Origin: the human T2T-CHM13v2.0 reference genome, Homo sapiens
Assembly: GCF_009914755.1 (NCBI RefSeq)
Contig: NC_060939.1
Strand: one strand, 5' to 3'
Length of the DNA stretch: 64,000 bases
The stretch's first letter is position 1; every line of letters begins with the position of its first letter. The notes under the pieces were generated by a model. That model did no database searches and was not told where the DNA came from. It was given only the letters and a program-made list of their open reading frames with translations. Below, in pieces: positions 16,315 to 21,652 of this stretch. The translations under genes and the position numbers were made by a program.

Positions 16315-16559
16315 CCGGAGGGGCCAGACCTTCAGGCACGTGGGACCTCAGCGTGTGGAGCCACCTGAACAGAAGATGACCATCATTTAAGGGCTTTTTA
16401 AAAAATCACTGTTAACAGACCTCCAGGTGATTCTACTGAAATGCACAGTCATGCAGAGCCCAGGAGGCAAATGTTTGTACACTGATCTTTTTCATGAGGA
16501 TGGGTCCAAGGGCCTGTAATCCCGTCCAACAGGTATGGTCCTTTTGAGCTCTTGGCACA

Positions 16560-19500
16560 CTTTGTTTATTTCTTCTTCTTTTTCTTTTCTTCTTCTTCTT
16601 CTTTTCTTCTCTTCTTCTTCTTTTCTTCTCTTCTTCTTCTTTCTTCTTTCCTCTTTTTCTTTCTTCTTTCCTCCTCTTTCTTCTTCCTCTTTCTTCTTTC
16701 TTTTTCTTCTTCCTTTTTTCTTTTCCTCTTTTCTTTTTTTTCTTTCTTCTTCCCTTTCTTTTCTTTTCTCTTTTTTCTTCTTTCTTCTTCCTCTTTTCTT
16801 CTTCTTCTTCCTCTTCCTTCTTCCTGTTTTCTTCTTCCTCTTCCCTCTTCTTCTTTCTTCTCTTCTTTCTTTTCTTCTGCTTTCTTTTTCTTTTTTTTCT
16901 TTCTTCTTCCTCTTCTTCCTTTTCTTCTTTCTTCTTTCTTCTTGTTCCTTATTCTTCTTCTCTTCTTTTCTTCTTCTATCTTCTTTCCTTCTATCTTCTT
17001 TTTCTTTCTTTCCTTTCTTCTTCCTCTTCTTCCTTATTCTTTTCTTTTTCTTCGTTCCTTTCTTTTCTTTTTCTTTCCTTTTCTTTCCTCCTTCTTCCTC
17101 TTCTTCCTTCTTTCCTTTTCTTCTTCTTTCCTTTCTTCTTCCTTCTTTCTTTCCTCTTTTCTTCTTTCTTCCTCTTCTTCATCCTTCTTATTCTTTCTTC
17201 TTCTTTCTTCTTCCTCTTCTTCTTTCTTCTTTCCTTTTCTTTTCTCTTCGTCCTCTTGTTCTTTCCTCTTCTTCCTTCTTTTCTTCTTCTTCTTTCCTTC
17301 TGCTCTTCTTTCTTCTTCCTTCTTATTCTTCTTTCTTTTCTTTCTTCTTCCATCTTCTATCTTCTTTTTCTTCTTCTTTCCTCTTCTATCTTCTTCTTAG
17401 TTCTTCCTTTCTTCTTCCTTCTTCTTTCTTCCTCTTCTTCCTTCTTTTCTTCTTCTTTCTTTTTCTTCTTCTTCCTTATTCTTCTTCCTCTTTCTTCATC
17501 TTTTTCTTTCTTCTTTCCTTCTACTTTTTCTTCTTCTTCTTTCCTCTTTCTTCTTCTTCCTTCTCCTCCTTTCTTCTTCTTATTCTTCTCCTTCTTCCTT
17601 CTCCTTCTTTTTCTTCTTCCTTCTCCTTCCTCTCCTCCTCCTTCGTTCTTTTTCTTTCTTCCTTCTTCCTTCTCCTTCTTCTTCTTAGTTCTTCCTCCTT
17701 CTTCTTTCTTCTTCCTCTTTCCTTTTCTTCTTCCTCCTTCTTCTTCTTCTCCTTAGTTCTTTCTTCTCCTCCTCCTTTCTTCTTCTTAGTTCTTCTCCTT
17801 CTTCCTTCTCCTTCTTCTTCCTTCGTCACCGTCTTCTCCTTCTTCTTACTTTCTTCTTCCTTCTCCTTCCTTCGTCTTCTTCTCCTTCTCCTCCTCCTTC
17901 CTTCTCCTTCGTTCTTCTTCTCCTTTTCTTCTTCTTCCTTCGTCTTCTTCTTCCTCCTCTCCTTCTTCGTCTTTTCTTTCTTCTTCTCCTTCTTTCTTCT
18001 TCCTTCTCCTCCTCCTTCTTCCCCTTCTTCCTTCTTCTTCTTCCTCTCCTTTTTCTTCTTAGTTCTTCTCCTTTCTTCTTTCTTCTTCTCCTTCTTCCTC
18101 CTTCTTTCCTCTTCTCCTCCTCCTCCTTTCTTTTCTTCTTCCTTCTCCTTCTTTTCTTCTCCTTCTCCTCCTTCTTCCTCCTCCTTCTTCCTTTCTTCTC
18201 CTTGTCTCTTCTCCTTCTTCTTCCTCTTTTCTTCTCTTTCTTCTTCTCCTTCTTCCTTCTCCTTCCTTTTCTTCTCCTTCTTCTTAGTTCTTCTTCCTTC
18301 TCTTTCTTCCTCTTTTCTTCTTTTCTTCTTGTCTCTTCTTCTCTCCTTCTTCTCCTTCTTAGTTCTTCTTTCTTCTCCTTGTTCTTCTCCTCCTTCTTCC
18401 TTTCTTCTTTCCTCTTTCTTTTTTCTTCCTCTTTCCTTCTTTCTTCTTCTTCCTTCTTATACTTTCTTTTCTTTCTTCCGCTTTCTACTTTCTTCTTCCT
18501 TTTTTCTTCCTTTTTCTCCTTCTTTCCTTCTTCTTTTCTTCTTTTTCTTCTTCCTCTTCTTATTCTTTCTTCTTCTTTCTTGTTCCTTATTCTTCTTTCT
18601 TCTTTCCTCCTCTTTCTTCTTCTTAGTTCTTCCTCTTCTTTCCTTCTTCCTTCTTTCTTCTTCTTTTACTTTTTTCTTTCTTCTTTCCTTCTTATTCTTC
18701 CTCTCCTTCTTCTTAGTTCTTCTTTCTTCTCCTTCTTTTCCTTTCTTCTTAGTTCTCCTTTTCTTCTCCTCCTCCTCCCTTCTTCTTCCTCCTCCTTCTT
18801 CCTTTTCTTCTTTCTTCTCTCCTTCTTCTCCTTCTTCCTCTTCCTTCTCCTTCTTCTTTAGTTCTTCCTCCTCTTCCTTCTCCTTCCTTCTTCTCCTCTC
18901 CTTCTTCCTTCTCCTTTTCTTCTTCCTTCTCCTTCTTTCTTCCTCCTTCTTCTTAGTTCTTCTTCTTCCTTCTCCTTTTCTTCTTTCTTCTCTCCTTCTT
19001 CTTCTCCTTCTTCTTAGTTCTTCTTAGTTCTTCTTCTTCTTCCTTCTTTCTCCTTCTTCTTCCTCTTCCTTCTCCTTTTCTTTCTCCTTCTTCCTTTTCC
19101 TCTTCTCCTTCTTTTCTTCTCCTTCTCCCTTCTTCTTTCTTCTTCTCCTTGTTCTTCTTCTTCTCCTCCTCCTTCTTTCCTCTTTTCTTCGTTCTTCTTC
19201 CTCTTCCCTCTTTTCTTTCTTTTCTTCTGCTTTCTTCTTCCTTTTTTTCTTCTTCCTTATTCTTTTCTTCTTTCCTCTTTTCTTCTTTCCTCTTTTTTCT
19301 TCTTCCTCTTTCTTCTTCGTTCTTCTTTCTTCTTCCTCTTTTCTTTCTTCCCTCTTTCTTCTCTTTTTCTTTTTTCTTTTCTTTCTTCCTCTTCTTCTAT
19401 TCTTTTTTTCTTCTTTCTTCCTCTTTCTATCTTCTTCCTTTCTTTCCTTTCTTCTTCCTTCTTTCCTCTTCTTTTCTTTCTTCTTCCTCTTCTTCTTTTC

Positions 19501-20492
19501 TCCTTCTTTCTTCTTCCTCTTCTTTCTCCTCCCTCTTTTCTTCTTCCTTTCTTTTCTCCTTTCTTCTTCCTCTTTCTTCTTGTTCCTTATTATTTTCTTC
19601 TTTCTTTTCTTCTTCTTCTCCTTCTTTCTTGTTCCTTATTTTCTTCTTCTTTCTTCTTCCTCTCCTTCGTCTTCTTAGTTCTTTCTTCTTCTCCTTCTTT
19701 TCCTTTCTTCTTCCTTCTTAGTTCTCCTTTTCTTCTCCTTCTCCTTCTTCTCTTCCTTCTTAGTTCTTCTTCCTCCTCTCCTTCTTCTCTTCTTCTTCTC
19801 CTTCTTCTTCCTTTTCTTCTTCTCCTTTCTTCTTCCTTCCTCTTCTTCCTCCTCTCCTCCTTCGTTCGTCTTCTTCTCCTTCTTCTTCTTCCCTCTTCTC
19901 CTTCCTCTTTTTCTTCTTCCTTCTCCTTCTTCTTCCTTCTTCTCCTCTTTCTTCTCCTTCTTCCTCCTTCTCCTTCTTTTCTTCTTCCTTCTCCTTGTTC
20001 TCCTTCTTCCTTATTCTTCCTTCTTCTCCTTCTTCCTCCTCCTTCCTCTTTTCTTCTTCCTTTTCTTCTTCTCCTTCTTTCTTCTTGTCTCTTCTTCTCT
20101 CCTTCTCCTTGTTCTTCTCCTTCTTCTTCTCCTTCTCCTCCTCCTCCTTCTTCTTCCTTCTCCTTCTTCTTTTTTGTTCTTCTTTCTTCTTCTCCTTCTT
20201 CCTTCTCCTTAGTTGTTCTTCTTCCTTGTTCTTCTCCTTCTTTTTGTTGTTCTTTCTTCTTCCTTCTTCTTCTTTCTTCTCCTTCTTTTCTTCTTCCTTC
20301 TTCTCCTCCTCCTTCTTCCTTCTTCTCTTGTCTCTTCTCTCTCCTTCTTCTCCTTCTTCTTCTTGTCTCTTCTTCTCTCTCCTTCTTCTTCTCCTTGTTC
20401 TTCTCCTGCTTCTCCTCTTCCTCTTTCCTTCTTCTTCCACTTCTTCTTCTTCCTCTTCTTCTTCTTTCTTCTTCTTCTTTTCTCTTTTTTTT
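16560..20492. repeat. ~3.9-kb complex polypyrimidine/polypurine simple repeat, (TTC/TCC/TTTC)n.(GAA)n-like
   Basis: The + strand is almost entirely C/T, with sparse recurring interruptions (ttagtt, ttgttcc, ttattc, ctatc, ttcgt). Confidence 0.98.
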
Positions 20493-20715
20493 GATATGGA
20501 GTCTTACTCTGTTGCCAGGCTGGAGTGCAGTGGCGCAATCTTGGCTCACTGCAACCTCCACCTCCCAGGTTCACGCCATTCTCCTGCCTCAGCCTCCTGA
20601 GTAGCTGGGACTACAGGTGCCTGCCACCACACCCAGCTAATGTTTTGTATTTTCAGTAGAGACGGGGTTTCACTGTGTTAGCCAGGGTGGTCTTGATCTC
20701 CTGACCTCGTGATCT
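20480..20715 (-). mobile_element. 5'-truncated Alu (AluSc-like) whose tail merges into the C/T tract
   Basis: Alu consensus; the gttgccagg one-base deletion is typical of AluSc. Confidence 0.9.
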
Positions 20716-20741
20716 TCCCCAGGGATGGGGTGTTCCATCTT

Positions 20742-20890
20742 CTGCCCTGTCCGGCAGAGTAGCTGCTTGCCACCTGAGGCTGTCATGCACCTGAAATGTT
20801 GGCTAGAGGGACTGAGAAGCTGAAATTTCTTATTTCTCATTATTTGAAATTGCAGGCACCCATGGCAAGTGGCATCCATGGTGCTTGGCT
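20742..20890. mobile_element. MER3/MER33-like DNA transposon remnant
   Basis: ctgtcc...gtagc...gccac...tgaaatgttggctag...gactgagaagctgaa pattern. Confidence 0.6.
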
Positions 20891-21652
20891 TTGAGGTGCC
20901 AGGCAAGCACAGCTTGTTCTGGGGCTTGGCTGTACCAGCAGGGGGATGTGTTTCTGGGGAATTGTGGCTCTGGAAGCTTCACGGTTTCCCAGAATGTGGA
21001 AAATATATCTGTGCAGGATAGAAATCCTGCCCAGAGGCTGTTTCTGTCTCATTTGAGCTCTCCTTCATGTGGCAGAGCTGGCTGTGGCGTTTAGGAGCCT
21101 ACATTTTAGAAAAGCTTACCTCAAAGTTCTGCATTGAGCCTGAGACTGGAAAGGAGATAAAATAAAACAGCTGACAGGAGCTTTGGTAGTCACACATGCC
21201 TGATGGGGTGCACAGGGCCACAGTCTCTGAAAGGCAATTTGGCATTGTCTGTCCACAATATACTTTTATCCATTGGTCCAGCAATCCTACTCTAGGAATT
21301 TTTCCTACATATAAACCTGTATGCATACAAAATGATAGACATACAAGGTTATTACTCTGAAAAAGCAAAAGATTGGAAACAAACCAAGTGACTGGCTACA
21401 GGGGACTGGTGAAATAGAGTATGTTCCATCCACACAGTGGAATTCTGTTCAGCAGTGAAAAAAGGATGAGAGTGCTTTCCAAGTGTTGTTATGGAAAGAG
21501 CTCCAGGATAAATTAAGTGGAAAAAAACCCCAAGATACAGGTACATTAAACCGAAGGAAATTGGTTCAGAGGATAGCTGCACCATTTTTAGAGAAAAAGC
21601 TTCCTTTCTCTCTTCACCTTTTGCAGGTGATGTATTTTTTTCTTTGGATTCC

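What the first reader, a model, noticed from the sequence alone, without database searches (positions are those of the whole stretch)
16315..21185. Possible 3'-UTR intron that excises the repeat and would send the CaaX isoform to NMD
Seen: there is no AATAAA between the CaaX stop (16314) and the repeat. A donor CAG|gtatgg (16532/16533) sits just before the tract. An acceptor tcttccccag|G (20722/20723), with a branch-like CTGAC supplied by the Alu at 20701-20705, sits just after it. The first AATAAA follows at 21161. Established: exon junctions more than 50-55 nt downstream of a stop trigger NMD, and very long 3' UTRs also destabilise mRNA. Inference: the Alu plus repeat landed in the ancestral 3' UTR. 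The CaaX mRNA must either carry 3.9 kb of CU repeat or splice it out 218 nt after the stop. Either route suppresses it and may explain use of the downstream Alu exon, a transposon-built regulatory circuit.
Basis: partly seen in the sequence, partly recalled or inferred. Interest (0 to 1): 0.72.

Follow-up and report, generated by a model that had tools for sequence, protein, structure and literature searches.

The report
Unproven 3'UTR intron in ANKDD1A
The splice-like and poly(A) motifs really do flank a 3.9-kb pyrimidine repeat behind an old, conserved last exon of human ANKDD1A, but they are about as common as chance allows and nothing available here shows that they are used.

Summary

The premise holds. 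The 16253-16314 exon is the ancestral terminal coding exon: 62 of 120 listed ANKDD1A relatives end in CxxM. One assembled public contig joins 15275 to 16253 with 160/160 residues identical to the human translation. The repeat is a degenerate, 97% pyrimidine (TTC)n-like array abutting the tail end of a 5'-truncated antisense Alu.

The proposed intron itself is unsupported:
- Equal or better donors occur in about 11% of 243-nt windows, and equal or better acceptors in 62-74% of 440-nt windows.
- A second equal donor lies at 16426/7.
- Eighteen TTAG sites with far better pyrimidine tracts lie inside the repeat, and the annotated acceptor at 22523 scores higher.

No RNA data could be reached. The Alu-coded tail is shared with New World monkeys and co-exists with CaaX-tail models in monkeys and gibbon, so there was no simple switch.

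Verdict: a reasonable but untested hypothesis about ordinary intronic sequence. Low to moderate interest.

The parts
15144..15275 (+). Annotated penultimate coding exon of ANKDD1A (death domain), ending with one base of a split codon
   Evidence: Hub annotation. Translation [43 protein letters not shown]. Used as the query.
16253..16314 (+). Ancestral terminal coding segment, absent from the RefSeq table for this window. It is in frame and encodes (E)NIRKKANAAPSAPRRCTAM plus the stop; the acceptor is ttgtttttaacag|A
   Evidence: 62 of 120 listed relatives end CxxM. P0002 residues 2-161 are 160/160 identical to the spliced human exons including this one. With this tail the Pfam Death match reaches profile position 85/86.
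16315..16557 (+). Unique sequence behind the stop: the start of the presumed ancestral 3'UTR. It has no AATAAA or ATTAAA, TTTAAA at 16397, and donor-like sites at 16426/7 and 16532/3
   Evidence: Unique in the own genome.
16530..16538 (+). Proposed donor CAG|GTATGG (exon end 16532), followed by U-rich sequence
   Evidence: Score 4.59; 29 of 3018 GT in the window score as high or higher.
16558..20488 (+). 3.9-kb degenerate (TTC)n-like polypyrimidine array (GAA-type on the - strand). It is 97.2% C+T; the longest pure pyrimidine run is 257 nt; the longest perfect TTC run is 5 units. It holds 18 TTAG|TT acceptor-like sites and no usable donor
20485..20719 (-). Antisense Alu, truncated at its own 5' end (about 60 nt missing, estimated against a neighbouring Alu). 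Its tail end abuts the pyrimidine array. It supplies CTGAC and most of the acceptor's pyrimidine tract
   Evidence: blastn against the neighbouring Alu: 204/240 identical, with alignment running to 20719. Sequence.
20701..20723 (+). Proposed branch-like CTGAC, pyrimidine tract and CAG|G acceptor at the junction of the Alu and unique sequence
   Evidence: Score 2.77; 231 of 4481 AG score as high or higher. The nearest upstream AG is at 20684/5.
21161..21166 (+). First AATAAA downstream of the CaaX stop; CA dinucleotides about 25-30 nt downstream, then G/T-rich sequence
   Evidence: AATAAA occurs 76 times on the + strand of the window.
22523..24111 (+). Annotated terminal exon. Its coding part, 22523-22608, is antisense-Alu derived ([28 protein letters not shown]). 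It is the competing acceptor, score 5.04
   Evidence: Hub annotation.

Best explanation
The interval is ordinary intronic sequence of the human reference ANKDD1A transcript. It begins just after a conserved, bypassed ancestral last exon.

It has four parts:
- about 240 nt of unique sequence, the start of the old 3'UTR;
- a 3.9-kb degenerate polypyrimidine microsatellite array that most likely grew from the A-tail of an antisense Alu;
- the truncated Alu itself;
- unique sequence that happens to carry an AATAAA 440 nt further on.

The GT, AG and AATAAA motifs are chance-level. They do not define a dedicated 16532->20723 intron.

Inferred, not shown: the Alu plus array pushed any downstream poly(A) signal more than 4 kb away from the CaaX exon. 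That exon is therefore poorly defined as a terminal exon and is mostly skipped in favour of the Alu exon at 22523. The minority of transcripts that include it end heterogeneously. They may read into the tract, use a weak proximal signal, or splice from 16427 or 16533 to one of several acceptors.
For: - The annotation lists a single human transcript that treats 15276-22522 as an intron (hub table).
- The CaaX exon is ancestral: 62 of 120 listed relatives end CxxM, across rodents, bats, carnivores, ungulates, afrotherians, lagomorphs, tree shrew and lemur.
- Motif frequencies are at chance level.
- Competing sites exist: a second donor at 16427 (4.47), 18 TTAG sites in the tract (7.4-11.4), AG 20756 (5.24), and the annotated 22523 (5.04), against 2.77 for 20723.
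- The array is 97% pyrimidine and abuts the Alu tail end. More than 60% of GAA repeats of 8 or more units are reported to lie in Alu poly(A) tails (PMC3812793, passage).
- No retrocopy or second copy of either flank in the own genome preserves an mRNA form.
Against: - The donor is good (top 1% of GT) and is followed by U-rich sequence, which from recalled knowledge of TIA1 can enhance 5' splice sites.
- The acceptor has a coherent branch-like site, pyrimidine tract and first downstream AG.
- The tract holds no usable donor: the best is 1.32, in the Alu, and all in the CT part are below -2. Its TTAG sites therefore cannot define internal exons, which leaves 20723 plus AATAAA 21161 as a plausible terminal exon.
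- The CaaX exon is spliced in at least one human-identical assembled contig.
- TCGA SpliceSeq lists two mutually exclusive alternate terminators for ANKDD1A (PMC8034091 and PMC8734344, passages), so a second 3' end is used in human tissue.
- My splice scores use recalled frequencies, not a validated model.
- No RNA data were examined.
Confidence: 0.55

Rival explanations
1. Transcripts that use the CaaX exon splice 16532->20723, removing the repeat and Alu, and end at the AATAAA at 21161. The junction 218 nt past the stop marks them for EJC-dependent NMD.
For: - All motifs are present and mutually coherent.
- The donor is in the top 1% of GT in the window.
- There are no donors inside the tract, so internal TTAG sites lack a partner.
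- The CaaX exon is used in a public contig.
Against: - The acceptor is ordinary: 231 of 4481 AG score as high or higher.
- Eighteen far stronger pyrimidine-tract AG sites lie upstream of it, and 22523 is stronger.
- No junction evidence could be obtained.
- A search of 1.84 billion representative proteins with the 35-aa 3'UTR ORF that would cross the junction gave no relevant hit: 2 weak, unrelated ones.
- Bona fide 3'UTR introns are reported as not predominantly NMD-sensitising (PMC13223760, abstract).
Confidence: 0.1
2. The CaaX exon acts as an internal 'poison' exon. The segment 16253-16532 (or 16253-16426) is spliced on to the annotated Alu exon at 22523. The CaaX stop is then followed by a junction, and the transcript is an NMD candidate.
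For: - It needs only the annotated acceptor (score 5.04) and one of two good donors (4.47, 4.59).
- An exon of 174-280 nt suits exon definition (established knowledge).
Against: - No junction data.
- RefSeq lists no such transcript (hub table).
Confidence: 0.15
3. The CaaX mRNA carries the whole CU-rich tract as a 4.9-kb terminal exon ending near 21185. PTBP1-type proteins bound to the tract stabilise it rather than destabilise it.
For: - The first AATAAA is at 21161.
- The tract has 622 TCTT and 649 TTCT motifs.
- PTBP1 is reported to shield long 3'UTRs from NMD (PMC4764554, title and start of abstract).
Against: - No 3'-end data.
- That TCTT is a PTBP1 site is recalled, not tested.
- Many AG sites in the tract invite splicing.
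Confidence: 0.1
4. The CaaX mRNA is cleaved before the repeat at a non-canonical signal, such as TTTAAA at 16397 within an A-rich stretch. This gives a short 3'UTR with no intron.
For: - TTTAAA at 16397 is the only one of the 22 scanned hexamer variants in 16315-16560.
- The 926-nt contig behind P0002 has room for at most 440 nt beyond its 486 nt of coding sequence (arithmetic).
Against: - TTTAAA is a weak variant (recalled).
- Nothing shows cleavage there.
Confidence: 0.1

Closest known systems
3'UTR introns (3UIs) that place an exon junction more than 50-55 nt past the stop (EJC-dependent NMD)
   Same: The proposed junction would lie 218 nt after an in-frame stop, with GT-AG ends and a downstream AATAAA.
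   Different: No transcript evidence for the junction. The sites are at chance frequency. Bona fide 3UIs are reported as not predominantly NMD-sensitising (PMC13223760, abstract).
GAA/TTC microsatellites born from Alu poly(A) tails (Clark et al. 2004, as cited in PMC3812793); the FXN GAA repeat is the special case at an Alu's middle A-stretch
   Same: A purine/pyrimidine-asymmetric, GAA-type array lies directly at the tail end of an Alu, in the matching orientation.
   Different: It is very long (3.9 kb) but highly degenerate: 70% matches and at most 5 perfect units. It is therefore unlike the pure, unstable FXN alleles. Here the transcript carries UUC, not GAA.
Antisense-Alu exonisation creating a new terminal coding exon
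   Same: The annotated last coding exon, 22523-22608, starts at the CCCAG|GCTGGAG site of an antisense Alu and encodes a typical Alu peptide.
   Different: That is the neighbouring feature, not the finding itself. The Alu next to the repeat carries the homologous acceptor (20518/9) and an open in-frame tail, but it is not annotated as an exon.
CaaX-box proteins (farnesylated C-termini ending CxxM; examples are recalled)
   Same: A cysteine lies four residues from the end, the last residue is Met, and basic residues lie upstream. All are conserved across placental mammals.
   Different: Prenylation of ANKDD1A was not tested here. It is not mentioned together with ANKDD1A in any relevant paper of the library searched.

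Membership tests
3'UTR intron triggering EJC-dependent NMD | GT...AG ends with consensus-like flanks, a branch site and a pyrimidine tract | tested here: met
   Donor 4.59, acceptor 2.77 (heuristic score), CTGAC 18 nt upstream of the AG.
3'UTR intron triggering EJC-dependent NMD | Lies wholly downstream of the stop codon of an mRNA isoform that is really made | tested here: inconclusive
   The stop is in frame. The 15275->16253 junction is present in one assembled contig whose translation is human-identical. The species and the 3' part of that contig are unknown.
3'UTR intron triggering EJC-dependent NMD | Junction more than 50-55 nt downstream of the stop | tested here: met
   16532 - 16314 = 218 nt.
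3'UTR intron triggering EJC-dependent NMD | Spliced junction observed in RNA | not testable with these tools
   No RNA-seq resource is available. The protein-library proxy search found nothing relevant. The supplement of PMC13223760 is unreadable.
3'UTR intron triggering EJC-dependent NMD | Isoform rises when UPF1, SMG1 or the EJC is inhibited | not testable with these tools
   No expression data. Three papers hold both 'ANKDD1A' and 'nonsense-mediated'. In the two whose ANKDD1A passages I read, the link is unrelated; the third, a read-through-transcript study, I know by title and abstract only.
Alu poly(A)-tail-derived GAA/TTC microsatellite | The array abuts the tail end of an Alu, with the A/GAA-rich strand on the Alu's sense strand | tested here: met
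   The T-run and array end at 20488, directly before the antisense Alu body.
Alu poly(A)-tail-derived GAA/TTC microsatellite | The orthologous site in species without the Alu is empty, and the insertion is flanked by a target-site duplication | tested here: inconclusive
   No duplication is visible, and the Alu is 5'-truncated at 20719. No non-human genome was available. The split-repeat test is within the range of shuffled controls.
CaaX prenylation motif | Cys at -4 and a permissive last residue, conserved among orthologues | tested here: met
   62 of 120 listed relatives end CxxM: CTAM 49, CMAM 4, CAAM 3, CTVM 3, CTTM 2, CIAM 1.
CaaX prenylation motif | The protein is actually prenylated | not testable with these tools
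   No relevant paper links ANKDD1A with 'farnesyl' or 'prenyl' (listings only).

The most novel reading that the evidence does not exclude
In anthropoid primates an Alu insertion, and the growth of its tail into a multi-kilobase polypyrimidine array, cut ANKDD1A's conserved, probably prenylated terminal exon off from its poly(A) site. That turned it into a poorly used or NMD-prone exon. Output shifted to an Alu-coded tail that lacks the membrane anchor and clips the last helix of the death domain. The length of the array, probably polymorphic, would then tune the isoform ratio.
Probability: 0.12. Interest if true: 0.6.

Novelty: new member of a known kind. Interest (0 to 1): 0.3.

Why it matters
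If the circuit were real, it would be a clean case of a transposon and its tail-born microsatellite re-wiring the C-terminus of a death-domain protein in primates, with a repeat-length handle on isoform choice.

As it stands, the useful result is narrower:
- The human reference isoform of ANKDD1A ends in an Alu peptide.
- An intact, mammal-wide CxxM-ending exon sits unused in the RefSeq table 1 kb downstream of the penultimate exon.
- Studies of ANKDD1A function have not, in the library searched, considered that isoform.

Tried and rejected
- **Retrocopy search.** I looked for a processed copy that would preserve the mRNA's 3'UTR by searching the own genome with 16253-16557 and 20723-21200. 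The left flank matches only itself. The right flank has four short matches of 74-83% identity on other chromosomes covering 20747-20851, which is an old interspersed-repeat fragment and not a retrocopy.
- **Contiguity test.** I asked whether that old repeat is split by the insertion. The other copies extend 30-75 nt further left. Local alignment of those parts to 16458-16569 scored within the shuffle range: 35, 39, 404 and 439 of 500 shuffles scored as high or higher. Inconclusive.
- **Target-site duplication.** None is visible by eye at 16545-16569 against 20720-20760.
- **Protein-library proxy for the junction.** The 35-aa ORF 16440-16544 would be altered by the splice. It was too short for the search for homologous proteins. 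The search of protein representatives gave 2 weak, unrelated hits of 564 and 194 aa. This is uninformative, because such short ORFs may not be in the library.
- **Higher-order structure of the tract.** Only low-complexity families of 65-82% identity were found.
- **Friedreich-type pure GAA/TTC run.** Rejected: the longest perfect run is 5 units, and 314 of 3931 nt lie in perfect runs of 4 or more units.
- **Literature.** I searched 'ANKDD1A' paired with 'nonsense-mediated', 'farnesyl', 'tandem repeat', 'Alu', 'prenyl' and 'polyadenylation'. Nothing bears on this region except the TCGA alternate-terminator events. The supplement of the 3'UTR-intron catalogue PMC13223760 could not be read and may list ANKDD1A.
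- **Bacterial promoter/terminator scan.** Irrelevant to a human gene; ignore it.
- **Assigning the Cercocebus Alu-type tail to the repeat-adjacent Alu.** The best hit is 20518-20601 at 24/28, but other Alus score 23-25/28, so it does not discriminate.

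
Full report
**What is in the sequence.**
- Exon 15144-15275 ends with one base of a codon. Joined to 16253-16314 it reads ENIRKKANAAPSAPRRCTAM followed by TAA at 16312-16314. Joined to the annotated last exon it reads [28 protein letters not shown].
- CAG|GTATGG lies at 16532/3, CTGAC at 20701-5, and ...GATCTTCCCCAG|G at 20722/3.
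- Neither AATAAA nor ATTAAA occurs in 16315-16560 or in the repeat. Of the 22 hexamer variants scanned, only TTTAAA at 16397 is there. The first AATAAA is at 21161.

**The repeat and the Alu.**
- TRF reports one array, 16570-20483, unit TTC, 1273 copies, 70% matches.
- The stretch 16558-20488 is 97.2% pyrimidine (T 2408, C 1413, G 59, A 51). The longest pure pyrimidine run is 257 nt. The longest perfect TTC run is only 5 units, and 314 of 3931 nt lie in perfect runs of 4 or more units. No higher-order unit was found.
- It is therefore an old, degenerate array, not a Friedreich-type pure tract.
- It ends in a T-run that leads straight into an antisense Alu. That Alu aligns to a neighbouring Alu at 204/240 identity up to 20719 and then stops, so about 60 nt of its own 5' end are missing.
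- The CTGAC and most of the acceptor's pyrimidine tract are Alu sequence. The AG sits at the junction with unique DNA.
- An array on the tail side of an Alu fits the reported origin of most long GAA repeats in Alu poly(A) tails (PMC3812793, passages read).
- By recalled diagnostic positions the Alu looks like a younger AluS (Sc/Sp-like) element. I give this little weight.

**Is the CaaX exon real?** Yes, as an ancestral exon.
- A search with the 43-aa penultimate exon returned 153 proteins, of which 120 were listed.
- 62 of the 120 end in CxxM behind a conserved E[SN]IRKKANA..SAPRR tail. They come from rodents, bats, carnivores, ungulates, afrotherians, lagomorphs, tree shrew, colugo, tarsier and mouse lemur. 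They also include predicted isoforms of Saimiri, macaques, Cercocebus and gibbon.
- 17 of the 120 carry Alu-type tails, all in primates. The remaining 41 have other, read-through or truncated ends.
- P0002 comes from an unnamed assembled contig of 926 nt. It matches the spliced human exons 9930-10028, 12706-12895, 15144-15275 and 16253-16314 at 160 of 160 residues. The 15275->16253 junction therefore exists in public data, but how that contig ends is not visible.
- With the CaaX tail the Pfam Death-domain match runs to profile position 85 of 86 (30.2 and 25.7 bits). With the Alu tail it stops at 79 (23.9 bits, and 21.9 bits, which is below the 22.6 cut-off).

**Is the proposed intron more than chance?** I scored sites with a simple weight matrix whose frequencies I recalled. 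It is a heuristic, calibrated only against the 13 donors and 14 acceptors annotated in the window.
- The donor (4.59) is as good as ANKDD1A's annotated donors (-0.2 to 5.0). 29 of 3018 GT score as high or higher.
- The acceptor (2.77) is ordinary: 231 of 4481 AG score as high or higher.
- In sliding windows, a donor this good appears in 11-12% of 243-nt windows. An acceptor this good appears in 62-74% of 440-nt windows. An AATAAA appears within 463 nt in 24-33%. No AATAAA in 243 nt occurs in 80-86%.
- Multiplying the + strand values gives about 0.02. That product is my own arithmetic, is post hoc, and mixes in two conditions that say nothing about splicing.

**Competing sites.**
- A second donor, CAG|GTGATT, lies at 16426/7 (4.47).
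- Eighteen AG dinucleotides lie in the tract, all in the form TTAG|TT, with near-perfect pyrimidine tracts (7.4-11.4).
- AG 20756 scores 5.24, and the annotated acceptor at 22523 scores 5.04.
The TTAG sites could therefore serve only as starts of long terminal exons, and 20723 plus AATAAA 21161 would make a tidy 463-nt terminal exon.

The sequence alone cannot choose among these paths.

**Does it explain the Alu exon?** Probably not in a simple way.
- The Alu-type tails of Aotus, Saimiri, Cebus and Callithrix match 22522-22605 best, at 24, 24, 23 and 19 of 28 residues. The next-best Alus score 18-22. That exon was therefore in use before Old and New World monkeys split.
- CaaX-tail models co-exist with it in several monkeys and in gibbon.
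- In human tissue, TCGA SpliceSeq lists two mutually exclusive alternate terminators, 31137 and 31138 (PMC8734344 and PMC8034091, passages). Which exons they are was not stated in what I read.

**The NMD logic.**
- The 50-55-nt rule is established, and the 218-nt distance meets it.
- However, the abstract of PMC13223760 reports that introns confined to 3'UTRs are not predominantly NMD-sensitising.
- PMC4764554 (title and start of abstract) reports that PTBP1 shields long 3'UTRs from NMD. The tract has 622 TCTT motifs; that TCTT is a PTBP1 site is recalled.
- 'Either route suppresses it' is therefore not secure.

**What could not be done.**
- No RNA-seq, long-read, 3'-end or non-human genome resource was reachable.
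- Proxies failed. There is no retrocopy. The split-repeat contiguity test was inconclusive. There was no relevant hit for the junction-spanning ORF. The supplement was unreadable.
- Library searches pairing ANKDD1A with 'nonsense-mediated', 'farnesyl', 'prenyl', 'Alu', 'tandem repeat' or 'polyadenylation' found nothing on this region.

**Verdict.** The specific intron-plus-NMD circuit is untested, and the sequence does not favour it over several alternatives. I rate it 0.10 as stated. I give 0.55 to 'ordinary intronic sequence with chance motifs, where the exon is skipped because it lost a nearby poly(A) site'.

Noticed in passing
window 16253-16314: An intact terminal coding exon conserved across placental mammals, ending in CTAM (CxxM in 62 of 120 listed relatives). 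It is absent from the RefSeq table for this window. No relevant paper in the library links ANKDD1A with prenylation.
   Followed up: yes
window 22523-22608 versus 16253-16314: The Alu-coded tail of the reference isoform cuts the Pfam Death-domain match at profile position 79 of 86. The ancestral tail extends it to 85, and one Alu-tail protein falls below the Pfam cut-off.
   Followed up: partly
window 15276-15692: Reading through the 15275 donor gives GKSVLCW...LGLPDSYP*, a tail carried by predicted isoforms of orang-utan, macaques and Cercocebus. An AATAAA lies at 15687-15692 inside the intron. Intronic polyadenylation may therefore be a third alternative terminator.
   Followed up: no
window 20518-20605: The Alu next to the repeat carries the same CCAG|GCTGGAG acceptor position as the annotated Alu exon. 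It has an open tail in frame with exon 15144-15275 ([28 protein letters not shown]). A Cercocebus isoform tail is 24/28 identical to it, but other Alus match about as well.
   Followed up: partly
window 20747-20851: A fragment of an old interspersed repeat, with matches of 74-83% identity on four other chromosomes (L003-L006). It is not among the masked stretches of 100 bases or more that the hub lists for this window.
   Followed up: partly
ANKDD1A coding sequence, exact site not located: A review table lists a Q/R A-to-I recoding site in ANKDD1A, citing Sakurai et al. 2014 (PMC11995373, passage). The Alu-coded last exon, flanked by inverted Alus, is an obvious candidate location.
   Followed up: no
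window 16033-16045: A run of 13 C in the intron about 200 nt upstream of the CaaX exon.
   Followed up: no
upstream of the window (PLEKHO2-ANKDD1A): Read-through chimeras between PLEKHO2 and ANKDD1A with four isoforms are reported (PMC3041646, passage). One Otolemur protein named PLEKHO2 in the search carries the ANKDD1A death-domain exon.
   Followed up: no
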